Below, in pieces: positions 16,685-53,364 of a stretch of DNA of 64,000 nt. Both the position numbers and the translations under genes were made by a program. Under the pieces are notes generated by a model, which searched no databases, had not been told where the DNA came from, and saw only the letters and a program-made list of their open reading frames with translations. The stretch comes from Patescibacteria group bacterium. GTDB lineage: Bacteria; Patescibacteriota; Patescibacteriia; XYB2-FULL-38-15. Position 1 is the stretch's first letter. Every line of letters begins with the position of its first letter. Location: assembly GCA_041737355.1 (NCBI GenBank), contig JBGSRW010000006.1, forward strand, positions 83,734 through 147,733, read 5' to 3'.

Positions 16685-17335
16685 TTAGTCTTTATCTAAA
16701 ATAATAACTTTTGTTTCTTCCTGGGGCAAATCCTTTTTCAAAATTTTCAGCTTAGGGAGATGTTCTGCCTTTCCGGCGCCCATCTCTTTAAGAAATTTAT
16801 CCACCGGATCAATATCCATTTTAAGCCCGGGAATTTTATAATGCATCGGGATAACTATCCTCGGTTCTATCTCGTTGATTATTTCCGCCGCCTCGCGGGC
16901 CCCGATTGTCCATTTATCTCCGACCGGGATAAGAAGAATATCAACGCCGTCGAGTTTGGCGACCTGCTCCTCGTTCAAGGTATGCCCTAAATCGCCAAGG
17001 TGGGCGATGGAAATCCCTTCCATTTCTATTCTGTAGGCAACGCTTTGCCCCCGTTCTTTTCCTTCGCTCTTGTCATGCCAGAAGGGAATACCGTAAACAA
17101 AAACCCCTTTTACTTCGTATTCGCCCGGGCTGCTGATTAAAAACGGTGTTTCTCCCTTTTCTCCGCGGACCGCATCGACATTATTATGGTCGTCGTGGTC
17201 GTGGCTCACGGTAACAATATCGGCGCTAAGACGCGATAACTTTAAACCGACCTCTCCTCCGTATGGATCGGTTACAAAAGCCACGTCTTTTCCCTGAATT
17301 TTGAAACACGATTGTCCAAGCCACGATATCGTCAT
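16685..17335 (-). CDS. Metallo-beta-lactamase fold metal-dependent hydrolase (UPF0173-like)
   Basis: 216 aa starting MTISWLGQSCFKIQGKDVAFVTDPY with an HDHDDHNN metal-binding motif. Confidence 0.8.
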   Translation of the reverse strand: MTISWLGQSCFKIQGKDVAFVTDPYGGEVGLKLSRLSADIVTVSHDHDDHNNVDAVRGEKGETPFLISSPGEYEVKGVFVYGIPFWHDKSEGKERGQSVAYRIEMEGISIAHLGDLGHTLNEEQVAKLDGVDILLIPVGDKWTIGAREAAEIINEIEPRIVIPMHYKIPGLKMDIDPVDKFLKEMGAGKAEHLPKLKILKKDLPQEETKVIILDKD

Positions 17336-17591
17336 AAATTTAAAATTATTTTCTAATACGCTCCGTGATTTCCGACCGCTCCTCCATAAAAAGAGTCGGA
17401 ACCAAAGACTGCTCGCCTTCGGCGGAAAATTAAAAAATCATTAACTTATCATAACATAATTTTATAAAAAGGCAAACCCCCAAGCCGGGGCTATTTTGAC
17501 TTAATCCTATATACATTATATATGCTTGACATTTTGGGCGGTTTTGCCAAGATAGAATATCTGGCCCGAATGGATTTGGGCGAGAAAAGGG

Positions 17592-17620
17592 GTCCCGCGG
17601 TATTGCGGGACGGAGGAGGA
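17592..17620 (+). promoter_or_regulatory. Perfect 7-bp hairpin (GTCCCGC-GGTATT-GCGGGAC) directly abutting the GGAGGAGGA ribosome-binding site of the islet gene
   Basis: The hairpin at 17592-17611 and SD at 17612-17620 sit 5 nt before the ATG at 17626; a possible translational control element. Confidence 0.35.
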
Positions 17621-17625
17621 TCAAA

Positions 17626-18303
17626 ATGGGAGACGGACAAACAAAGCCGCACCTTGTCGTGCCGGAACCGAAGAAATGGATGGCACGGGTCATGAAGCAG
17701 CTTTCCGGGGGCGAAGTAACGGGCGGATCCGTCATCGGAGTACGGGAAGCATCTTGCCTGAACGGCAGGCTCGCCTTCACTCTTCTCCGGCAGGGCGGCT
17801 CGTGCGTCGTTGTTTACGGCGACATGAGCGATCCGCTCGAGAGACTGACGAAGAGCGAACCTTTCCGCCAAGTCCTCGGCCTCCGGCTCGCGAACGGCCG
17901 GCCGCTCTACGTCGCCTGGCCGGATGATCCCAAGGACAACCGGCCCTGCGTCTTCTGGGGCAAAACCAAAGAAGGACCGCCCTGCGACGCCATTGACCAC
18001 GAGAGGCTCTCGGTGTGGGACAACGCGCTCCCGCTCTACCCCGGCTGGAGAGACGGCAAGGTTTGCATCTTCCGCGGTAGGGACTATGGCAAACCCTACG
18101 ATGATATCGTAGGCCCGATCTCCATCGTGGGTAACCGCGAACTCTACCGCGCCCGGCTCGGCAAGGAAATGCTTCTTGTCTGGAGCAAACAAGAAAGCGA
18201 GACCTACGAGCACGTTTCGCCGCCCGAGTTCGACGGCAAAGAAGTCACCGCCTGGGCGACAAGATCCGTCAGGTTCTACAAGCTGGCGATCAAGGTCGCC
18301 TAG
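17626..18303 (+). CDS. Hypothetical protein, GC-rich islet gene A
   Basis: 225 aa with the strong SD GGAGGAGGA. Codon third positions are strongly G/C-biased, unlike neighbours; no recognizable domain. The overlapping antisense ORF 17491..18405 is judged spurious. Confidence 0.6.
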   Translation: MGDGQTKPHLVVPEPKKWMARVMKQLSGGEVTGGSVIGVREASCLNGRLAFTLLRQGGSCVVVYGDMSDPLERLTKSEPFRQVLGLRLANGRPLYVAWPDDPKDNRPCVFWGKTKEGPPCDAIDHERLSVWDNALPLYPGWRDGKVCIFRGRDYGKPYDDIVGPISIVGNRELYRARLGKEMLLVWSKQESETYEHVSPPEFDGKEVTAWATRSVRFYKLAIKVA

Positions 18304-18313
18304 GAGACAAGCC

Positions 18314-18847
18314 ATGACGGACGAAAATGAGAAGATGGCTTGTCCGAACTGCGGCTCGGAAGACGTCAAATGCTTCCACCAGCCGAAAAACGGCTTCGTC
18401 ACCATCTGGGACGAGTACGTCTTGCTCTGCCCGAAGTGCCGTCACCACGAAACGCGGCAGGAGCAGGCCGGCTTTTTCTTCTTCCTGCTCTTCTGGTCCC
18501 GCGACACGGTCTGCCCTTTCTGCGGCAAACCGCCCGCGAAACATCAGAAGGGACGGCTTCTCACGGAGATGGCTTCCTTTCTCGATGAAACCGGGGACAA
18601 GGCGAAGGAACTCGATCCGGCCGCCGAGATCTGCCCGGAGTGCGGCAAGGGTGAAATCGTCTGCACTTATCTTGGCGAGAGCGGCACGCCGAGAAATTAC
18701 AACTACGTCTGGGAGCATACCTGCACCCGCTGCGGTTACAACCGCAACTTCACCGAATTCAGCGAGTGCGATGATCCCGATCACGCCGAATTCGTTGACC
18801 GGCACGGTCCCGGCAAAGACGGCGGCTGTCCCGGCCCGCACAAGTAG
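18314..18847 (+). CDS. Cys-rich multi-zinc-ribbon protein, GC-rich islet gene B
   Basis: ATG at 18314 with AGGAG 8 nt upstream, 11 nt after the gene A stop. 177 aa with CPNCGSE, CPKCRHHE, CPFCGK, CPECGKGE, CTRCGY motifs (five CxxC pairs). Confidence 0.6.
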   Translation: MTDENEKMACPNCGSEDVKCFHQPKNGFVTIWDEYVLLCPKCRHHETRQEQAGFFFFLLFWSRDTVCPFCGKPPAKHQKGRLLTEMASFLDETGDKAKELDPAAEICPECGKGEIVCTYLGESGTPRNYNYVWEHTCTRCGYNRNFTEFSECDDPDHAEFVDRHGPGKDGGCPGPHK

Positions 18848-18868
18848 CAGTCAAGGAGGAAATCAACC

Positions 18869-18902
18869 CACCGCAAGGTCCACACTTTGCGGTTTTTTTT
18901 GT
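18869..18902 (+). terminator. Rho-independent terminator after the islet operon
   Basis: CCGCAAGGTCCACACTTTGCGG stem followed by TTTTTTTT. Confidence 0.6.
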
Positions 18903-18908
18903 TTAAAT

Positions 18909-18934
18909 ATAAAAATCCGCCATCAAAGCGGATT
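18909..18934 (-). terminator. Rho-independent terminator of the convergent minus-strand operon
   Basis: ATCCGC-catcaaa-GCGGAT hairpin with a U-run on the minus strand (plus-strand ATAAAAA). Confidence 0.5.
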
Positions 18935-18955
18935 CTATTATACTATTTTAAATTA

Positions 18956-19477
18956 TTAATCAATCGCTAAGTCAATTGCCTGCGGTTTTTCTTCGGCGGC
19001 CGGCTTTCCCGCCGAATTGCCGTTCGTGCTCCGCAGGGCCGAAGTTGTCGCCCGCGGACCGGTAACTTTTTTCGGAGTGAGCGCCGAAGTTTTTGCCGTC
19101 GTCTTTAGCGCCGCGGTTGTCGCGTTCTCCGGTTTTCCGGCCGAAGTCGCTTCGCGCTCGCGCGAGTAAAGTCCGACCATCTTTTTTTGCATCGCCTCCC
19201 TTTGTTTTCTCATGTCGGCCATCGTCAGCTTTGGTTTATCCTCGTCGGCAATTTCTTTTTCCGTGCCGCGGATAACTTCGCCGGTTGATTTATGGACAAT
19301 CCCTTCGCTCCGCAGGGCGCCGACCGCTTTCCTGAATTGGTCCTTACTCACCGACTGTTGATGCAGTAAATTCCCCATCCCGGCTTTTTGTAAAGCTTTC
19401 TCAACCTTAAAAGACGGCTTGCCCGAAGCCTGATGCAAAGCGCTTTTAAATTGTCCCGAAGTAAATCGTAAAGCCAT
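18956..19477 (-). CDS. Hypothetical protein with a low-complexity Ala/Thr/Lys-rich C-terminus
   Basis: Trimmed to ATG at 19477 (MALRFTSGQFKSALHQ...), 11 nt after the kinase-like gene stop; 173 aa; no recognizable domain. Confidence 0.45.
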   Translation of the reverse strand: MALRFTSGQFKSALHQASGKPSFKVEKALQKAGMGNLLHQQSVSKDQFRKAVGALRSEGIVHKSTGEVIRGTEKEIADEDKPKLTMADMRKQREAMQKKMVGLYSREREATSAGKPENATTAALKTTAKTSALTPKKVTGPRATTSALRSTNGNSAGKPAAEEKPQAIDLAID

Positions 19478-19487
19478 AAAAAATATT

Positions 19488-20624
19488 TTAAGCCGCTTTT
19501 TCTTTTGCTTCTTCCGGAAAAAGATAAACCCCGTTGAAGGCCGCTTCAATCTCCCGGCGCGCCTCTTTCTCGTCGTAATTATCCGGCAATTTCTGCGTGG
19601 TGATCATTTCCTCAACTCTGGCCGTAAAATGCTGCCAAATAACTTCCGCGTCTTCGCCCAAAACATTAAAGCATTCGCGGAGAGCTGTTTTGGTTTTGTT
19701 GGATTGCAAAAAATCCTGTAATTTTTTCCCTATTTCCGGAGACAGCGTCGGGTCAAAAGCCTGATCCCCGAGCTTTTCCTTGTTGAACAGTTCCAGCGGC
19801 TCGGACCGCACGGCCAAAGTCGGAAATCTGTCTTTAATTCCAAAGGTGTCGTAAGTCAAACCGCGGCCGAAACTCAAACCGTTATCAATCGCGTGAGCCT
19901 TGCCGGCTTTGTCAACCATAAAATTTCCGCCATGCCGATCCTGACTCCCAATCAGGTAATCGAACAGGGCGATTTTTTGCGCTTCTTCTTCGCTAAGCCC
20001 GGCCTCCGGCCCTCCTTCGTCGTAAGTTTTGGCGTCCGGGATCCAAGCTTGGAACGAACCAACCCCCTGCTCGCCTTTTCGGACAACCGTCGGCGGGGTC
20101 ACATCCAGCCCCAAAGCCCGGTCGGCCATAAATGCCAGCCATTCTCTTTTAAAACTGCTCTTTGGCTCAATCCCCGGCCGCGGACTCAATTCTCCCTTTT
20201 CTCCCAAAACCACTTCCCCGTCAGCCGGCTTAAAAATTCCTTTTCTTTCCCCTTTTTCACCCAGACGCAAAATATATGATGCATTAATACCTTTGTGTTC
20301 GTCGCCCAACGCTTCAATCGGTTTACACGGCGGTTCGCAAGGTTTTGCTTCTTTCAATTCTTGAAGTTTATCCAGCTCTTCGGCAACCTGTTCCGCCGTC
20401 TCCGGCCCGCCCTCCATAATTTTCGCGCCGTAAAGAGCGCTCGTCAGCTGATCCATCCTTGAGAGAAGTCTGTCTTCTTCAATTCTTTTTTCCCGCTCCT
20501 TGGTTTCAGCTTCCTGCTTCCCGATATCCGAAACTTCCGGTTTTTTCTCCGGCACTTCCTTCCCTTCCGGCATTTTCATTTCTTCTATAAAAGCTTCAGG
20601 ATAGCTTGATTCTCTGTCAGCCAT
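19488..20624 (-). CDS. PI3/PI4-kinase-like atypical protein/lipid kinase domain protein
   Basis: 378 aa. An acidic coiled-coil N-terminus, then GIFKPADGE (beta3 Lys region), catalytic loop DRHGGNFMV (PI3/4K DRHxxN) and an IDNGLSF DFG-like activation segment. Confidence 0.55.
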   Translation of the reverse strand: MADRESSYPEAFIEEMKMPEGKEVPEKKPEVSDIGKQEAETKEREKRIEEDRLLSRMDQLTSALYGAKIMEGGPETAEQVAEELDKLQELKEAKPCEPPCKPIEALGDEHKGINASYILRLGEKGERKGIFKPADGEVVLGEKGELSPRPGIEPKSSFKREWLAFMADRALGLDVTPPTVVRKGEQGVGSFQAWIPDAKTYDEGGPEAGLSEEEAQKIALFDYLIGSQDRHGGNFMVDKAGKAHAIDNGLSFGRGLTYDTFGIKDRFPTLAVRSEPLELFNKEKLGDQAFDPTLSPEIGKKLQDFLQSNKTKTALRECFNVLGEDAEVIWQHFTARVEEMITTQKLPDNYDEKEARREIEAAFNGVYLFPEEAKEKAA

Positions 20625-29559: not shown

Positions 29560-29772
29560 AAATAAACTTCGTATCGTTAATCTAATATATCCTATCTTTG
29601 TTATCTTGACCTCGCACTTTCTTTTAAAGAAACTGTATTCTTATCTTACCATCATATCAAATTAAAAGACAAGAAAGTACGGGGTTGACAAAGAAAAGCT
29701 CTCGTGTTAAGCTCCAACGTTGCTACCATCCGGGTCTTTTGACCTCGGAGGGGAAGGCAAGGGAGGAACATA

Positions 29773-30234
29773 ATGGAAGGAACGAGCGGGAGCGGCCCGA
29801 AGCCGCAAAGAACCCGAGAAGATGTTATTCGTTCCCGTGGCGTAGCCATTCTGATGCAGATTGCCATGCCTGTGCTTCACGACCGGGGAAGCGACGACGA
29901 TCGTGGCCGGGCCACGAGATGCAAGCTCTTCGACGTCTACGCTGATCCCGAAGGCCGGATGGTCTTCGTTCTGGATATCGCCGACGACGACGAACGGGAT
30001 AGGATCATCGGCGGGGAACACCGACTTCATCTCTCGGCTCTCCAGATTCTCTTTTCCGTGTCGGTCCGTGACACTTTTCCGGTCGAAGAAAGGCAAAACG
30101 TTAACGTAATTGCCGGCATCCGCAATCCCGGCGACGGCTTGATCGTTTTCCCCCAGGAACTCGTCCCGGAGAGCGAGCTCGATCCGCTCGATCCGGAAGA
30201 CGAAGATGACGGGGAGGAAGACGGCGACGCGTAG
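29773..30234 (+). CDS. Hypothetical protein with an acidic C-terminal tail, GC-rich islet 2
   Basis: 153 aa with RBS GGGAGG and a candidate promoter TTGACA-17-TAAGCT at 29686. It is GC-rich unlike the flanks, and ends with EDEDDGEEDGDA. The antisense ORF 29707..30240 is judged spurious. Confidence 0.5.
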   Translation: MEGTSGSGPKPQRTREDVIRSRGVAILMQIAMPVLHDRGSDDDRGRATRCKLFDVYADPEGRMVFVLDIADDDERDRIIGGEHRLHLSALQILFSVSVRDTFPVEERQNVNVIAGIRNPGDGLIVFPQELVPESELDPLDPEDEDDGEEDGDA

Positions 30235-30243
30235 CAACAACGA

Positions 30244-34063: not shown

Positions 34064-34690
34064 CTATCGCCGCGGCGCAACCGGGGGAACCCGGATACCG
34101 CGCCGGTCGCGCTGACTCAGGCCGCCGATCTCCTCGTCATCGGCCCGATTTCCTCCGCGCATCATCCATTCGAGGCCCCGCATGGCCATCACTTCTTCGA
34201 CCGAAACCTTCTTGTGCTCGGGACATCCACGTCTAGAGCAGACTTGGATCATCCCGGAAGAGCCGTCCCGGACGTAGAGCGACTTGATACCGACCATCTT
34301 GGCGTTGCAGGTACAGTACGCCACGGTCGGCAGACTTGCACCGCACCACGGACAGAAGAGATCGAGCACTTCACCTTCCCTGATCTCGGGCTCGGAGCGA
34401 ACCGTGCGGCCGCCCCAAGCGGCCGAAACGTGGAGAACGTGATCGCCATCCCGCAGCGCCTCGTTCATGTAACGCCAGCCGATCTTGATTGCCGGATGGC
34501 CGTCGATCTCGCGGACCGGATCGACTAGCCCAATCCCGCAGGCCGGCAAGGGGCAGGCGGCAATGATAATGTTGCCCTGCTGTCCCAAGCGCGCGCACTC
34601 CTTGCAGTGAAGGCCGTCCGGACGAAGTTCCAGAAGACCGCCATGCAAGACGCAAACCCTCGTCTCCTCCCTTTTTCCCTGCATTTCCAC
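34064..34690 (-). CDS. Cys-rich (multi-CxxC) protein, GC-rich islet 3 gene C
   Basis: 208 aa with the perfect SD AAGGAGGTG 5 nt before the ATG; motifs CKECARLG, CPLPACG, CPWCGAS, CTCNAKM, CSRRGCPEH; Arg-rich C-terminus. Confidence 0.6.
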   Translation of the reverse strand: MEMQGKREETRVCVLHGGLLELRPDGLHCKECARLGQQGNIIIAACPLPACGIGLVDPVREIDGHPAIKIGWRYMNEALRDGDHVLHVSAAWGGRTVRSEPEIREGEVLDLFCPWCGASLPTVAYCTCNAKMVGIKSLYVRDGSSGMIQVCSRRGCPEHKKVSVEEVMAMRGLEWMMRGGNRADDEEIGGLSQRDRRGIRVPPVAPRR

Positions 34691-37032: not shown

Positions 37033-37527
37033 CTACGCAGCGTCCTTGCGGACGGCAAGGATTCTCTCGGGCCGAGGGCCTAGGTCGACCCCAGAGAAAT
37101 CTGGCGGATCGATCCCGCCGCCGGTGAAATCATCACCGTTGAGGATCCGCTCGCCTTCGTGGTATGAGAGAAAAGGGAAGACGTGTCCGCCGTCAGGATC
37201 CGCCCAACGCGAGCCGATAACCACGATTTGGAACTCTCGCTGAAGTCCGGGATAGCGAGCACCAAGAGCTAGAAGATCTTCGATCTTGGCAGGTCGGAGG
37301 CCGTGGCGGTCAAGTTCGGCAATGACCTCACTAGCCGAACGGGGAGAGTACTTGGGGTCATCGGGAACGCGGGCAAGGAGGAGCTCACGCTCCACCTTGC
37401 CCTCACCCGTGATGGGGAAGCGGTCGGAGGAGACGCTGGGGAACACGTCATCGTAATTGCCAGCAGCGACCATCGCTTCGAACGTCTGGCCGTAGTCCAC
37501 CGTGACCTTGTAGGTCCTCTTCTTCAT
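37033..37527 (-). CDS. Hypothetical protein, GC-rich islet 4
   Basis: Trimmed to ATG at 37527 (MKKRTYKVTVDYGQTF...) with RBS GGGAAGG; 164 aa; GC-rich versus flanks; no recognizable domain. Confidence 0.5.
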   Translation of the reverse strand: MKKRTYKVTVDYGQTFEAMVAAGNYDDVFPSVSSDRFPITGEGKVERELLLARVPDDPKYSPRSASEVIAELDRHGLRPAKIEDLLALGARYPGLQREFQIVVIGSRWADPDGGHVFPFLSYHEGERILNGDDFTGGGIDPPDFSGVDLGPRPERILAVRKDAA

Positions 37528-37684
37528 CCTTCCCTTTCTAACCAAAGGTTTTCGATCGCTCGCCAATAGGCAGGACCATTCCTGGCCTTATTTTGAGGGT
37601 TATAAAACCGCCAAAATAAAGGCAGGAACGATAAATCAGCTTATCATGGCTTTAATATTTTGTCAAGATCTTATAACATCTTTA

Positions 37685-46667: not shown

Positions 46668-47585
46668 ATGCCAGATTTGAATACTTTAACCACCGAATTC
46701 CTCGAATACCTGGAAATAGAGAAAAACCGATCCAACCAGACCGTGCGGAATTATAATTTCTATCTGAAACGCTTTGCCCAATGGGCCGGAAACGTCTCGG
46801 CCGCCGGGATTACCCAGGACATGGTCCGCCAATACCGCCTCTGGCTGAACCGTTTTGCCGACGACAAGGGCCGAACGCTCAAAAAAAACACCCAAAACTA
46901 TCATCTGATCGCCCTGCGCGCCTTCTTGAAATATCTTGCCAAGCGCGACATCAAAACCTTATCGGCGGAAAAGATAGAATTAGGCAAAATGCCGGAAAGA
47001 ATCGTTGATTTTTTGGAAGGGCCCGACCTTGAACGGCTGCTTGAAACCCCGACCCTTGCCGACTCCCCGGAAATTATCAAAAAAAGAGACAAGGCAATCC
47101 TCGAAATGCTGTTTTCCACCGGATTACGCGTTTCGGAACTGGCCAATTTGAAAAAAGAACAGGTAAATTTGAAAAAAGAAGAATTTACGGTCCGCGGCAA
47201 AGGTGACAAACCCCGGGTTGTCTTCCTCTCAAACCAATCAAAATACTGGCTCGGACAATATCTGGCCGCCCGACGCGACATGTCACCGTATTTATTCGTT
47301 TCCCACGACCGGGCACACGAAAGCGAGGGGGCCCTCACTCCCAGAAGCGTGGAACGGCTCGTCAAAAAATACTCCAAGGCCGCCGGCATCACCAAAAAAG
47401 TTACGCCGCATACCATGAGGCATTCTTATGCCACTGATTTACTGATGAACGGCGCCGATATCCGCTCGGTCCAGGCAATGCTTGGTCACTCTTCAATTAC
47501 TACCACTCAAATTTACACCCATATTACCAATCAGCAGCTTCGCGATGTCCACAAAGCCTTTCACGGACGGAAACGAAACAAATAA
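46668..47585 (+). CDS. Tyrosine recombinase, XerC/XerD family
   Basis: 305 aa with an N-terminal SAM-like core-binding domain (FLEYLEIEKNRSNQTVRNYNFYLKRF) and a catalytic domain with the R...HxxR...Y motifs (HTMRHSYATDLLMNGADIRSVQAMLGHSSITTTQIYTH). Confidence 0.85.
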   Translation: MPDLNTLTTEFLEYLEIEKNRSNQTVRNYNFYLKRFAQWAGNVSAAGITQDMVRQYRLWLNRFADDKGRTLKKNTQNYHLIALRAFLKYLAKRDIKTLSAEKIELGKMPERIVDFLEGPDLERLLETPTLADSPEIIKKRDKAILEMLFSTGLRVSELANLKKEQVNLKKEEFTVRGKGDKPRVVFLSNQSKYWLGQYLAARRDMSPYLFVSHDRAHESEGALTPRSVERLVKKYSKAAGITKKVTPHTMRHSYATDLLMNGADIRSVQAMLGHSSITTTQIYTHITNQQLRDVHKAFHGRKRNK

Positions 47586-47633: not shown

Positions 47634-47708
47634 GGCCCCGTAGTTTAATGGATAGAACACTAGCCTTCTAAGCTGGATATCGAGGTTCGATTCCTCGCGG
47701 GGTCACCA
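47634..47708 (+). tRNA. tRNA-Arg (anticodon TCT), CCA encoded
   Basis: GGCCCCG TA GTTTAATGGATAGAAC A CTAGC CTTCTAA GCTGG ... GAGGTTCGATTCCTC GCGGGGTC A CCA. Confidence 0.85.
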
Positions 47709-47709
47709 T

Positions 47710-47781
47710 GGTGGCTATAGTTTAACGGTAGAACAGTGGGTTGTGGTCCCACTAGCCTGGGTTCAACTCCCAGTAGCCACC
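47710..47781 (+). tRNA. tRNA-His (anticodon GTG) with encoded G-1 and C73 discriminator
   Basis: G(-1)GTGGCTA ... anticodon stem GTGGG/CCCAC with loop TTGTGGT ... T-arm GGGTTCAACTCCC ... TAGCCAC C. It starts 2 nt after the CCA of tRNA-Arg; no CCA encoded. Confidence 0.85.
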
Positions 47782-51367: not shown

Positions 51368-52183
51368 CTACGCTTCGATCGCTTTCTTGATCTTCCTCGC
51401 GAACTCGCGCCGAACCGCCGCCGGATCGGAACTCCGGGAGGCCAGCTTACCAACAGCGCTCCGCAAGGCGCGGACCATGGCTTCGAGATCGGTTTCGGAG
51501 AGATGCCGGATCTTGCCTTCGGAAGCTTCCAGCGCCCAGGAATTGACCTTGAGCGTTCCCTCGATCCAGCTTTGAAGCTCGGCGTTGTAGATTTCTCCGA
51601 CCGAAGGGAATTCCCCGGCGTACTTCACGAGCGTCTCGTGGTGCCGGGCGAAAACCGAGATGAATTTCTCGTTACCGTGCCCGACGAACTCGAATAGGGC
51701 GTAAAGCACGTAATCGAGCTTTTCCATCGCGTCGAAAAATTTCGCCTCGACGCTTTCCGCCGGCAGGCAGTAGACCCGCCGCAGGAAGGATGCAAGGAAA
51801 CCGAGCCGGTCCATCTGGATCAGGGTTTCCTCGTGCTCGATCTGCTCGTAGACCTCCTCGATCCGCGGATCATGCTTGAAGACGTAGCGGATGTCACCGA
51901 TCGCCCCTTCCGAGAACTCGTGAATCACTGCGTGCGTCATGACCAAGAGCTCGTCGATCTTGTTCTTGCCGGCCTTCCGCTCAAGCTCAAGACAATAGGC
52001 CGCAAGCAGGGCAATGGAAAGCGAATGGTGTGCCGAGGTCTGCCGCTGGTGGCGGTTCGGGTAGCCCTCCCACCTTCCGCAGCGCAGCAGACGGTCGAAG
52101 ACGTCGAAGACGCCGCCGACGAACTTGGCCATCTCAAGACGCCTCTCCAGGGCGGGGTCTTTGTTCTTGCCGCAATCATCCAT
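51368..52183 (-). CDS. HD-superfamily phosphohydrolase, YfbR-like (5'-deoxynucleotidase-like); GC-rich
   Basis: 271 aa: YPNRHQRQTSAHHSLSIALLAAY and VMTHAVIHEFSEGAIGDI align with the YfbR His...HD motifs, but the usual HD reads HE here; GC-rich codon usage. Confidence 0.55.
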   Translation of the reverse strand: MDDCGKNKDPALERRLEMAKFVGGVFDVFDRLLRCGRWEGYPNRHQRQTSAHHSLSIALLAAYCLELERKAGKNKIDELLVMTHAVIHEFSEGAIGDIRYVFKHDPRIEEVYEQIEHEETLIQMDRLGFLASFLRRVYCLPAESVEAKFFDAMEKLDYVLYALFEFVGHGNEKFISVFARHHETLVKYAGEFPSVGEIYNAELQSWIEGTLKVNSWALEASEGKIRHLSETDLEAMVRALRSAVGKLASRSSDPAAVRREFARKIKKAIEA

Positions 52184-52605: not shown

Positions 52606-53364
52606 ATGAAGACAAAAATGACGTACCTGGCCATTTTTGCCGTGCTTTGCGGCTGCCGCAACGAATTCATTGACCTGACTCGGGAGGAATACGGGGTCGT
52701 TACCCAAATCATGATCCGTCCCGACTTCCCCGAGGGAGACGGCTCAATCGCCGTCCCCAAGGGGGACCAATCAAACACGGCGAATTACAAACTGAGGGCG
52801 TACGTCTACAACCACGACGGCATGCCCTTGTACCGGCCGATCGATTGGCGGGTTTCCGACCCGGCCCTGGTCGAACTCATGCCGGAAACCGACGACCCTC
52901 CGACCCACGAAGCCAGAGCCGCCATCCGGACTCTCCAAGACGTCTTCGACGCGGAAGGCGAAACCGAACCGGAAGCCACGATCACGGCCTGCGTCACGAA
53001 CGACTGCGAAGGATACGGCGGAGAAGTCGTCTGCGAACCGGAAATTTGCAGCGCGCCGATTACCGTGAAAGGCGTCGTGAATGCCGAAGGGGCTTGGGAA
53101 CTCTCGGGCGCGACTTTCCCCTTCACGGTGGCAATCTACACCAGCCAGACCGGACGGACGCTCGACGCAATCTCGAGCTATTACGAGCCGGAAATCCACG
53201 GCAACCAGATCAATTTCTCGGCTGGCAGCACAAGCTACGTCGGCCACTTCACCGACCGGACGCGCGTCACGGGCGAAGCGATTGTCTCCCCGAGCGGCGA
53301 CAATCTCGGAACCTGGACAGCGGTAAAGTGTCCGGACACCGGCTGCACCGGCGCCGGGCCATAG
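52606..53364 (+). CDS. Predicted lipoprotein, GC-rich
   Basis: 252 aa with the lipobox FAVLCGC at residues 12-18 and RBS GGAAGGGAGG; many Cys in the mature part (CVTNDCEGYGGEVVCEPEICS, CPDTGCTG). The overlapping ORFs 52771..53400(-) and 52845..53441(+) are judged spurious GC-driven frames. Confidence 0.55.
   Translation: MKTKMTYLAIFAVLCGCRNEFIDLTREEYGVVTQIMIRPDFPEGDGSIAVPKGDQSNTANYKLRAYVYNHDGMPLYRPIDWRVSDPALVELMPETDDPPTHEARAAIRTLQDVFDAEGETEPEATITACVTNDCEGYGGEVVCEPEICSAPITVKGVVNAEGAWELSGATFPFTVAIYTSQTGRTLDAISSYYEPEIHGNQINFSAGSTSYVGHFTDRTRVTGEAIVSPSGDNLGTWTAVKCPDTGCTGAGP

What the first reader, a model, noticed from the sequence alone, without database searches (positions are those of the whole stretch)
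17520..18905. GC-rich two-gene islet encoding an unknown 225-aa protein and a five-CxxC zinc-ribbon protein, inserted convergently at the end of the gyrA operon
The 1.3 kb block between the MBL-hydrolase gene and a bidirectional terminator differs sharply in base composition from the AT-rich flanks: G/C-dominated third positions, and long spurious antisense ORFs typical of GC-rich DNA. It carries two tightly coupled plus-strand genes with strong SDs (GGAGGAGGA; AGGAG). Gene B has five CxxC pairs arranged as consecutive zinc ribbons; gene A has no motif I can place. A compact foreign operon with a multi-zinc-ribbon partner is the pattern seen for nucleic-acid-targeting or defence/toxin modules, but the function is not identifiable from sequence.
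Basis: partly seen in the sequence, partly recalled or inferred. Interest (0 to 1): 0.7.

Follow-up and report, generated by a model that had tools for sequence, protein, structure and literature searches.

The report
Ancient GC-rich recombining two-gene cassette
The GC-rich two-gene block is real, but it is not a recent foreign insertion: it is an old operon of unknown function, specific to one lineage of Falkowbacteria-like Patescibacteria. It sits at the same chromosomal site in at least 11 genomes, stays GC-rich in all of them, and swaps gene-sized modules by recombination.

Summary
**Observation.** Confirmed in substance.
- Gene A (17626-18303, 225 aa) has GC3 0.76. Gene B (18314-18847, 177 aa, five CxxC) has GC3 0.78. 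Other window genes average 0.51 (z about 6.5-6.9).
- Orientation was misread. The pair is head-to-head with the MBL-gyrA operon and convergent with the next operon.
- At least four other GC-rich ORFs lie in the window.

**Interpretation.** Partly supported.
- The pair occupies the same site in 11 distinct loci. Genome GC there is 0.41-0.50, A identity falls to about 31%, and the pair is GC-rich in every one. Flanking synonymous sites are near saturation, so the composition is maintained rather than left over from an import.
- One Falkowbacteria MAG (gyrA 91% identical) lacks it.
- A, the B N-module and a third module C reassort. One 250-bp tract is 88-98% identical beside 33-64% sequence.

**The proteins.**
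- A is built from about 37-aa repeats of a Pfam-less family common in Patescibacteria. A low-confidence model matches only beta-propellers.
- Window B is a fusion of a two-zinc module with C. Relatives carry a 2-TM anchor instead.
- Nothing reaches a curated cut-off in Pfam or NCBIfam; PADLOC, PHROGs and the PDB give only weak matches.

**Best reading.** A fast-evolving, non-enzymatic recognition complex at a recombination hotspot. Function is unproven.

The parts
17526..17558 (+). Conserved promoter-like element: TTGACA (17526-31), TTTTGCCAAGATA core, TAGAAT (17553-58).
   Evidence: CTTGACAtttt..TTTTGCCAAGATAnAAT is almost invariant in 10 loci whose flanking synonymous sites are near saturation. 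TTGACA-to-TAnAAT spacing is 21 nt, and 16 nt to the invariant CAAGAT, so the true -10 is uncertain. The sigma-70 scan did not call it.
17564..17581 (+). Leader stem-loop 1: GCCCGAA-tgga-TTTGGGC.
   Evidence: Seven pairs, 98.4% of cells paired in 9 loci. Three pairs change on both sides; the slid controls give none at five of six offsets and one pair (one cell) at +2. The segments were chosen by hand.
17592..17611 (+). Leader stem-loop 2 (GTCCCGC-ggtatt-GCGGGAC), abutting the SD.
   Evidence: Seen in the sequence. An equivalent GC-rich hairpin with a different sequence is present in L001, L002, L003, L010 and L014, and absent in L006, L008 and L015.
17612..17620 (+). Shine-Dalgarno site of gene A (GGAGGAGGA).
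17626..18303 (+). Gene A: 225-aa all-beta repeat protein with about 37-aa 'PLY..VWG..YD' units and a C-terminal cap.
18302..18306 (+). Shine-Dalgarno site of gene B (AGGAG), overlapping the stop codon of A.
18314..18568 (+). Gene B, N-terminal zinc module (residues 1-85). Invariant C10, C13, C20, C39, C42, C67, C70, H77.
   Evidence: Alignment of 10 orthologues. Present in every locus. 88-98% DNA identity to L003 over 18315-18540 while the neighbouring sequence is 33-64% identical.
18611..18847 (+). Gene B, C-terminal module (second ribbon CPEC..CTRC plus GPGKxGGCPGPHK tail). It is homologous to a separate gene C in relatives.
   Evidence: A stand-alone 77-aa gene in L015/L016 and an unannotated ORF at L008 9337-9594 match it at E 3e-34 and 4e-18.
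18870..18901 (+). Intrinsic terminator of the A-B operon: 10-bp stem followed by a T run.

Best explanation
**What it is (shown)**
- An old, lineage-specific accessory operon of Falkowbacteria-like Patescibacteria, fixed between the MBL-gyrA operon and the p197/PI3K-like operon.
- It is inherited broadly with its flanks. Gene-conversion-like exchange between diverged alleles repeatedly reshuffles its three modules: A, the B N-terminal zinc module, and C.
- Its high GC (GC3 0.64-0.83, a strong NNC preference, and raised GC1/GC2) is a maintained state of this locus, not an un-ameliorated import.

**Why it stays GC-rich (inferred)**
The most likely cause is a locus-specific GC-favouring force tied to the frequent recombination, that is, GC-biased gene conversion. 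Codon selection for expression may add to it.

**How it works (inferred, low certainty)**
- A folds into a small beta-propeller-like scaffold of about five 37-aa blades with no invariant catalytic residues, so it is a binding protein.
- The N-module of B binds two zinc ions. The proposed sites are C10/C13/C39/C42, and C20/C67/C70/H77. It probably docks on A.
- In several relatives, possibly the ancestral form, B is tail-anchored in the membrane by two C-terminal TM helices and a small zinc-ribbon protein C is encoded separately. In the window's lineage the anchor was lost and C was fused to B, which gives the 'five-CxxC' protein.
- The complex would be a membrane-proximal or cytoplasmic recognition device under diversifying pressure from phage, host or competing cells. 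It is not an enzyme.
For: **Fixed position**
- Same gene order in L001, L002, L008/L009, L010, L011, L015/L016 and the window. The partial flanks of L003, L004, L006 and L014 agree.

**Maintained GC**
- A/B GC3 is 0.64-0.83, against 0.29-0.60 for neighbours, in genomes of GC 0.41-0.50.
- At 4-fold sites of identical residues, distant pairs share only 0.44-0.56 of third bases, yet those sites stay about 0.7-0.9 GC.

**Coding and fast-evolving**
- dN/dS is 0.29-0.45 for A and B, against 0.05-0.12 for MBL and the PI3K-like gene.

**Mosaicism**
- A: W-L001 69%, W-L003 41%.
- B N-module: W-L003 91%, W-L001 50%.
- L010-L006: A 85%, B 44%.
- Identity changes sharply at module borders.

**No outside donor**
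- Only 15 orthologues, all unnamed. The named ones are Patescibacteria, plus one mis-binned contig.
- The repeat family occurs in other Patescibacteria and in Elusimicrobiota.

**Fold and modules**
- Module C is a separate gene in relatives, and TM helices are visible in B of L008, L010 and L015.
- The invariant Cys/His set comes from the 10-orthologue alignment.
Against: - Function is not demonstrated by any test. No match reaches a curated Pfam or NCBIfam cut-off or is significant in PHROGs, PADLOC or the PDB.
- The A-B interaction was never tested. Free reassortment of A and B alleles argues against tight co-adaptation.
- GC-biased gene conversion of this magnitude (about +25 points of GC3) is not established in bacteria. 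The extreme NNC preference and the strong SDs could instead reflect translational selection.
- Other GC-rich ORFs in the window suggest a genome-wide class of such genes whose cause was not examined.
- All relatives are metagenome contigs.
- Whether L007 lost the block or branched off before it was gained depends on an unrooted tree.
Confidence: 0.5

Rival explanations
1. Recent horizontal import. The block is a foreign islet from a GC-rich donor whose composition has not yet been ameliorated.
For: The composition is strongly deviant, including GC1 and GC2. The block is absent from one related genome, L007. It is a self-contained operon.
Against: It is present at the same site in 11 loci with A identity down to about 31%, and is GC-rich in all of them while the flanks are saturated. 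No homologue outside Patescibacteria was found among 5.8 billion proteins, apart from a mis-binned contig. There are no integrase, repeats or tRNA at the borders. The midpoint-rooted flank tree nests L007 inside the carriers.
Confidence: 0.05
2. Translational selection. A and B are very highly expressed native genes, and the GC3 excess is a preference for optimal NNC codons, with no special recombination-linked force.
For: NNC/(NNC+NNT) is 0.85 and 0.77, against 0.24-0.55 elsewhere. TTC, TAC, AAC, CAC and ATC each make up 0.82-0.90 of their families. SD sites are near-perfect, the promoter-like element is conserved, and there are 5' stem-loops and a strong terminator.
Against: GC1 and GC2 are also raised, and AAG, GAG and CAG are enriched. 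dN/dS of 0.3-0.45 is the opposite of what highly expressed genes show. The block is dispensable in L007. gyrA, S1, FtsH and PNPase show no such bias. The long-repeat homologue P0017 is not GC-deviant.
Confidence: 0.15
3. A dedicated anti-phage defence or toxin-antitoxin module. The zinc-ribbon protein would act as sensor or antitoxin and A as effector.
For: It is a small coupled operon. Its proteins evolve fast and its alleles are shuffled as modules. The first ribbon of B comes close to the Lar restriction-alleviation family in one relative (28.2 bits against a cut-off of 28.6).
Against: No significant PADLOC hit (none for A; Cas8f at E 0.059 for B) and only weak PHROG matches to unknown-function families. 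A has no nuclease, NTPase, pore or other toxin domain, and no invariant catalytic residues. It has a fixed housekeeping neighbourhood, not a defence island. The Lar score in the window protein is only 14.8 bits.
Confidence: 0.2
4. The block is not protein-coding as read. The GC-rich DNA encodes a structured RNA, or the real gene is the long antisense ORF.
For: GC-rich islands in lower-GC genomes are often structural RNAs. The antisense ORFs of 304 and 183 aa are long.
Against: Substitutions are concentrated at third codon positions and dN/dS is below 1 in the A and B frames. The antisense frame carries stops in most relatives. There is no Rfam match. Cys/His and repeat motifs are conserved at the protein level.
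Confidence: 0.02

Closest known systems
Beta-propeller / beta-hairpin repeat proteins (PD40/TolB-type blades, WG-containing repeats)
   Different: No Pfam repeat model matches A or its multi-repeat homologues. One weak PD40 hit in P0024 is the only exception. The spacing between WG and YD is shorter than in WG repeats (my own recollection, not tested). A has only about 5 units and a distinctive N-terminal 'GxxTKxYxxVVPGG' segment.
Small zinc-ribbon proteins of the Lar / FmdB (Zn_ribbon_8) / YgiT-MqsA type
   Same: The pattern is CPxCG ... about 25 residues ... CxxC ribbons. There are sub-threshold hits to Zn_ribbon_8 (29.8 bits) and Lar_restr_allev (up to 28.2 bits in L015).
   Different: All hits fall below the curated cut-offs. 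B has an extra invariant C20 + CPFC + H77 cluster, a variable C-terminus (2-TM anchor, second ribbon, or nothing), and no HTH or other effector domain. There is no PDB relative.
Recombination-associated GC enrichment (GC-biased gene conversion hypothesis for bacteria; my knowledge of Lassalle et al. 2015, not retrieved here)
   Same: Elevated GC3 coincides with demonstrable conversion-like tracts and allele mosaicism.
   Different: The size of the effect (+0.25 GC3, confined to 1.3 kb and persisting across a whole clade) is far larger than the genome-wide correlations reported. The direction of substitutions was not tested.
Hypervariable accessory cassettes at fixed chromosomal sites (defence hotspots, polymorphic toxin-immunity loci)
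   Same: Conserved flanks, highly diverged alleles, module swapping, and occasional loss (L007).
   Different: Always the same gene family rather than alternating unrelated systems. No mobility genes, and no known defence or toxin domains.

Membership tests
Recently acquired genomic island | Deviant base composition relative to the host genome | tested here: met
   GC3 0.76/0.78 against 0.514 +/- 0.038.
Recently acquired genomic island | Absent from close relatives at the orthologous site | tested here: not met
   Present at the same site in 11 distinct loci and absent only in L007.
Recently acquired genomic island | Mobility signatures: integrase or transposase, flanking direct or inverted repeats, tRNA target | tested here: not met
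   No repeats involve the block. No tRNA nearby. The neighbours are housekeeping genes.
Recently acquired genomic island | Homologues in a plausible donor lineage of matching composition | tested here: not met
   The 15 orthologues are Patescibacteria or unnamed. The 'Gemmatimonadaceae' contig carries the CPR promoter and flanks.
Known anti-phage defence systems (PADLOC-DB 2.0) | Significant match of at least one component to a system model | tested here: not met
   A has no hit. B has only Cas8f at E 0.059.
Lar restriction-alleviation family (PF14354 / TIGR03655) | Score at or above the curated cut-off (28.6 / 39.6 bits) | tested here: not met
   Window B scores 14.8 and 21.6 bits. The best orthologue (L015) scores 28.2 bits.
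FmdB / Zn_ribbon_8 (PF09723) | Score at or above the 34.4-bit cut-off | tested here: not met
   29.8 bits, covering residues 1-19 only.
Beta-propeller fold | A confident 3-D model that closes a ring of 4-stranded blades, or a match to a propeller repeat HMM | tested here: inconclusive
Diversity-generating retroelement target | A nearby reverse transcriptase and a TR/VR repeat pair | tested here: not met
   No repeat of at least 30 nt involves 17500-18900. No RT among the neighbours.
Recombination hotspot with GC-biased gene conversion | Mosaic tracts with sharp identity breakpoints between otherwise diverged alleles | tested here: met
   W-L003: 33-64%, then 88-98%, then 63-80%. L010-L006: 80-92%, then 50-60%. 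The A and B identity matrices disagree.
Recombination hotspot with GC-biased gene conversion | An excess of AT->GC over GC->AT changes in polarised substitutions or polymorphisms, in non-coding tract sequence as well | not tested
   This needs population samples or a dense rooted phylogeny. Only single contigs per lineage are available.
Type II toxin-antitoxin pair | A recognisable toxin fold plus a DNA-binding antitoxin | tested here: not met
   No toxin, HTH, RHH or AbrB domains in A or B.

The most novel reading that the evidence does not exclude
The locus would be a previously undescribed, Patescibacteria-specific three-module system: a small beta-propeller-like protein, a membrane-tethered two-zinc adaptor, and a small zinc-ribbon protein. 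It would act in biological conflict, either in phage or host recognition or as a new defence system. It would also be a bacterial recombination hotspot so intense that GC-biased conversion has held a 1.3-kb tract about 15 GC points above its genome across a whole clade. If so, it is a natural counter-example to the rule that compositionally deviant islets are recent imports.
Probability: 0.25. Interest if true: 0.75.

Novelty: new variant of a known kind. Interest (0 to 1): 0.55.

Why it matters
**1. Method.** GC- and codon-deviant islets are routinely scored as recent horizontal transfers. Here the deviation is demonstrably old and maintained, so composition-based HGT calls and binning can mislead. 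One copy of this locus has in fact been binned into a Gemmatimonadaceae MAG.

**2. Evolution.** This is a compact, well-delimited locus where recombination tracts and GC enrichment coincide. It could make the disputed role of GC-biased gene conversion in bacteria directly testable.

**3. Biology.** Patescibacteria are largely uncultured episymbionts with many 'hypothetical' genes. A fast-evolving cassette that shuffles its modules and carries a conserved regulatory leader is a reasonable candidate for a host- or phage-interaction function. It also defines two protein families that Pfam, NCBIfam, PHROGs and PADLOC do not yet contain.

Tried and rejected
**Family and structure searches**
- Pfam, PHROGs, PADLOC and NCBIfam scans of A, B and relatives gave nothing above the cut-offs.
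- PDB sequence searches with the A and B profiles found nothing significant.
- The afdb50 Foldseek library was unavailable.

**Collection scans**
- The GTDB species-representative scan with the A profile returned no locus. The scan depends on short peptide patterns, so this is a weak negative.
- The IMG/VR scan with A returned none.

**RNA and repeats**
- Rfam, on the whole window at gathering thresholds and on 17300-19000 at E <= 1, found only tRNAs elsewhere and one chance sRNA hit.
- The window-wide repeat search found no DGR-type TR/VR and no flanking repeats.

**Paralogues and antisense gene**
- Local HMM searches for A, B or C paralogues elsewhere in the window or in L007 found none.
- The antisense-gene idea was rejected.

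**Other**
- A test of whether the wider repeat family is generally GC-rich showed that it is not. P0017 has GC3 0.53 in a 0.50-GC genome.
- Two literature searches (Patescibacteria + gBGC; Falkowbacteria + hypervariable) returned nothing relevant.
Full report
**1. What is in the window**

Two tightly coupled plus-strand genes lie between 17626 and 18847.
- Gene A (17626-18303, 225 aa) is preceded by GGAGGAGGA at 17612-17620.
- Gene B (18314-18847, 177 aa) starts 7 nt after an AGGAG that overlaps the stop codon of A.
- B contains CPNC, CPKC, CPFC, CPEC and CTRC.
- An intrinsic terminator (18870-18893 plus a T run) follows B. A second terminator on the other strand (18936-18912) ends the neighbouring minus-strand gene.

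A is head-to-head with the MBL-hydrolase gene (16685-17335, minus strand), which is the first gene of the MBL-TM-gyrA operon. The pair is convergent with the p197 / PI3K-like-kinase operon.

**2. Composition**

- The window is 0.471 GC. 300-nt windows over 17550-18899 are 0.57-0.64.
- A has GC 0.611 and GC3 0.761. B has GC 0.592 and GC3 0.775.
- 33 ordinary ORFs average GC3 0.514 with SD 0.038, which puts A and B at z = 6.5 and 6.9.
- The shift is mainly towards C-ending codons. TTC, TAC, AAC, CAC and ATC are 0.82-0.90 of their families, against 0.31-0.43 in the background. CTC, GTC and GGC also rise. AAG, GAG and CAG rise as well, and GC1 and GC2 are higher.
- NNC/(NNC+NNT) is 0.85 for A and 0.77 for B, against 0.24-0.55 in 43 other ORFs.
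- Four more ORFs belong to the same GC-rich class: 34064-34690, 37033-37566, 51368-52183 and 52606-53364.

**3. The long antisense ORFs are a by-product**

They occupy the codon-aligned antisense frame. That frame is open only because the sense strand avoids TTA, CTA and TCA. The same frame carries one to four stops in most relatives.

In the A and B frames, substitutions concentrate at third codon positions and dN/dS is 0.29-0.45. Both genes are therefore protein-coding.

**4. Relatives and synteny**

Searches of 5.8 billion proteins found only a handful of orthologues: 3 for A and 3 for B, each including the self-match, and 15 for A with a profile. All are 'hypothetical'.

Every contig recovered shows the same neighbourhood: gyrA - TM protein - MBL - [A B] - p150/p197 - PI3K-like kinase - p105 - S1 protein.
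- Full context: L001, L002, L008/L009, L010, L011, L015/L016.
- Short contigs with matching edges: L003, L004, L006, L014.
- The window's own contig is SRR28170473_4904.

Named records are 'Patescibacteria group bacterium'.

A GTDB representative, Ca. Falkowbacteria MAG JACRNW010000012 (L007), has the same gene order.
- Its gyrA is 90.6% identical to the window's, MBL 82% and S1 80%.
- It has only 190 nt between p197 and MBL, and no trace of A or B.
- In a midpoint-rooted NJ tree of six flanking proteins, L007 nests inside the carriers. This favours loss, but the root is not secured.

**5. The GC excess is maintained, not residual**

| Locus | A / B GC3 | Neighbour GC3 |
|---|---|---|
| L001 | 0.76 / 0.74 | 0.47-0.60 (p197 homologue 0.64) |
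| L002 | 0.76 / 0.81 | 0.36-0.45 |
| L008 | 0.64 / 0.70 | 0.29-0.44 |
| L010 | 0.74 / 0.69 | 0.33-0.55 |
| L011 | 0.76 / 0.80 | 0.31-0.46 |
| L015 | 0.65 / 0.70 | 0.34-0.46 |
| L014 | 0.82 / 0.83 | not available |

- Between distant loci, 4-fold sites at identical residues share the third base in only about 0.2-0.5 of cases in flanking genes, and 0.44-0.56 in A. They are near saturation, yet those sites in A and B remain about 0.7-0.9 GC.
- A recent import from a GC-rich donor cannot explain this.
- No donor exists in the databases. The single 'Gemmatimonadaceae' record (L014) carries the same CPR promoter and flanks, so it is a mis-binned contig.

**6. Modular recombination**

Identity matrices for A and B disagree.

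| Pair | A identity | B N-module identity |
|---|---|---|
| W-L001 | 69% | 50% |
| W-L003 | 41% | 91% |
| L010-L006 | 85% | 44% |
| L003-L004 | 72% | 48% |

Sliding DNA identity shows sharp borders.
- W against L003: 33-64% across A, 88-98% over 18315-18540, then 63-80%.
- L010 against L006: 80-92% in A, dropping to 50-60% at the A/B junction.

The downstream flank of L003 is nearly identical to the window's. Because the high-identity tract is bounded on both sides by diverged sequence, and the contigs come from different samples, assembly chimeras are an unlikely cause.

At larger scale, the A tree agrees with the flank tree. Inheritance is therefore broadly vertical, with frequent allele conversion.

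**7. Protein A**

- A profile search of 1.84 billion representatives gave 282 hits. There are about ten short orthologues, and many proteins of 400-500 aa (one of 4025 aa) matched in 3-6 stretches.
- Their sequences show a tandem unit of about 37 aa, 'dGKPLYxAxxxGKxFVVWGxxEGKpYDxVxxLxF', and a C-terminal cap 'IVFGARxGxxIYRV'.
- Named members are Patescibacteria and one Elusimicrobiota.
- One such gene, P0017, is not GC-deviant in its genome.
- Pfam recognises none of them. A weak PD40 hit in P0024 is the only exception.
- The invariant residues in 11 orthologues are the structural repeat positions. There is no catalytic-looking set.

**8. Protein B**

- Only the first 85 residues or so are conserved in all loci. 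The invariant residues are C10, C13, C20, C39, C42, C67, C70 and H77. This suggests two zinc sites, which is an inference.
- The C-terminus varies between loci:
  - a second ribbon plus a 'GPGKxGGCPGPHK' tail in W, L001, L003 and L004;
  - a linker plus two TM helices in L008, L010 and L015, and probably L006;
  - nothing in L002, L011 and L014.
- In L015/L016, and unannotated in L008, the second ribbon and tail are a separate 77-aa gene C.
- The window's 'five-CxxC protein' is therefore a B::C fusion that has lost the membrane anchor.
- Family scans give only sub-threshold zinc-ribbon hits: Zn_ribbon_8 at 29.8 bits against a cut-off of 34.4, and Lar at 14.8 bits here and 28.2 in L015 against a cut-off of 28.6.
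- PADLOC gives only Cas8f at E 0.059.
- Neither a PDB sequence search nor a fold search finds a relative.

**9. Regulation**

- Upstream of A, 'CTTGACAtttt..TTTTGCCAAGATAnAAT' is almost invariant in ten loci.
- A 7-bp stem-loop (17564-17581) follows it. It is paired in 98.4% of cells, and three pairs change on both sides. Slid controls give none at five of six offsets and a single cell at +2. The segments were chosen by hand.
- A second GC-rich hairpin abuts the SD in most loci.
- There is no Rfam match.

**10. Interpretation**

Shown:
- an old, clade-specific, fixed-site operon;
- maintained GC enrichment;
- elevated dN/dS;
- module-level recombination;
- a gene fusion in the window's lineage.

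Inferred:
- The GC enrichment is caused by a recombination-linked, GC-favouring process, perhaps together with codon selection.
- A is a small propeller-like binding scaffold. B is a two-zinc adaptor, membrane-tethered in several relatives and possibly ancestrally.
- The complex serves recognition under diversifying pressure.

The defence/toxin idea is not excluded, but it has no positive family evidence. The recent-import idea is rejected.

**11. Novelty and score**

Neither protein family is described in the libraries searched, and two literature searches found nothing relevant. The folds (repeat propeller, zinc ribbon) and the concept of a hypervariable accessory locus are known. The persistent, sharply bounded GC island coupled to conversion tracts in a CPR lineage is unusual and testable. 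Interest is 0.55.

Noticed in passing
window 34064-34690 (-), 37033-37566 (-), 51368-52183 (-), 52606-53364 (+); possibly 29707-30240 (-): These are further small GC-rich ORFs (GC3 0.66-0.78, NNC fraction 0.70-0.82) with no family assignment. 34064-34690 is Cys-rich. 51368-52183 weakly resembles an HD 5'-deoxynucleotidase. 52606-53364 looks like a lipoprotein. They form a distinct compositional class together with A and B. Whether they are also old and syntenic in relatives is unknown.
   Followed up: partly
L014 (GCA_030681735.1, JAUXRV010000026.1, 1448 nt): This contig is deposited in a 'Gemmatimonadaceae bacterium' MAG. It carries the A+B pair with the Patescibacteria-type promoter, leader and terminator. 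It is almost certainly mis-binned because of its high GC.
   Followed up: yes
window 17526-17558 and the equivalent sites in L001, L002, L006, L008, L010, L011, L014, L015: The promoter-like element is almost invariant, with TTGACA placed 21 nt (not 16-18) before TAnAAT. The invariant CAAGAT lies 16 nt after TTGACA. This could be an unusual promoter geometry or an operator.
   Followed up: partly
L001 1946-2596 (-); L010 6964-7671 (-): Some relatives carry an extra gene of ordinary GC (216-235 aa, no Pfam hit) between MBL and A. The window has only a 290-nt spacer there, with a minus-strand terminator-like hairpin at 17475-17492 that may be a remnant.
   Followed up: no
L002 2969-3178; L011 9252-9515: In the lineage with the short B, a small DUF1059 gene of ordinary GC follows B. 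In L002 the 'GGCPG' tail motif of module C is still visible out of frame, which indicates an internal deletion.
   Followed up: partly
window 18956-19549 (-) and 19488-20624 (-): The listed p197 ORF overlaps the PI3K/PI4K-like kinase gene by 62 nt. The L001 orthologue starts at the internal MGNLLHQQ, so the true start in the window is probably that downstream ATG. The PI3K-like kinase (PF00454, E 1.8e-8) is conserved across the whole clade and evolves fast (37-73% identity).
   Followed up: no
window 46668-47585 (+), 47634-47781 (+): A tyrosine recombinase (Phage_integrase, E 5e-41) lies directly upstream of two tRNA genes. It could be XerC/D or an integration hotspot. It is unrelated to the finding.
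   Followed up: no
B residues 52-62 (window 18467-18499): In the anchor-less fusion forms (W, L001, L003, L004), the loop after the invariant 'AG' is strongly hydrophobic (FFFFLLFW). In the TM-anchored forms it is polar (HHIGNRDFPQ). The hydrophobic loop may be a substitute for membrane association.
   Followed up: no
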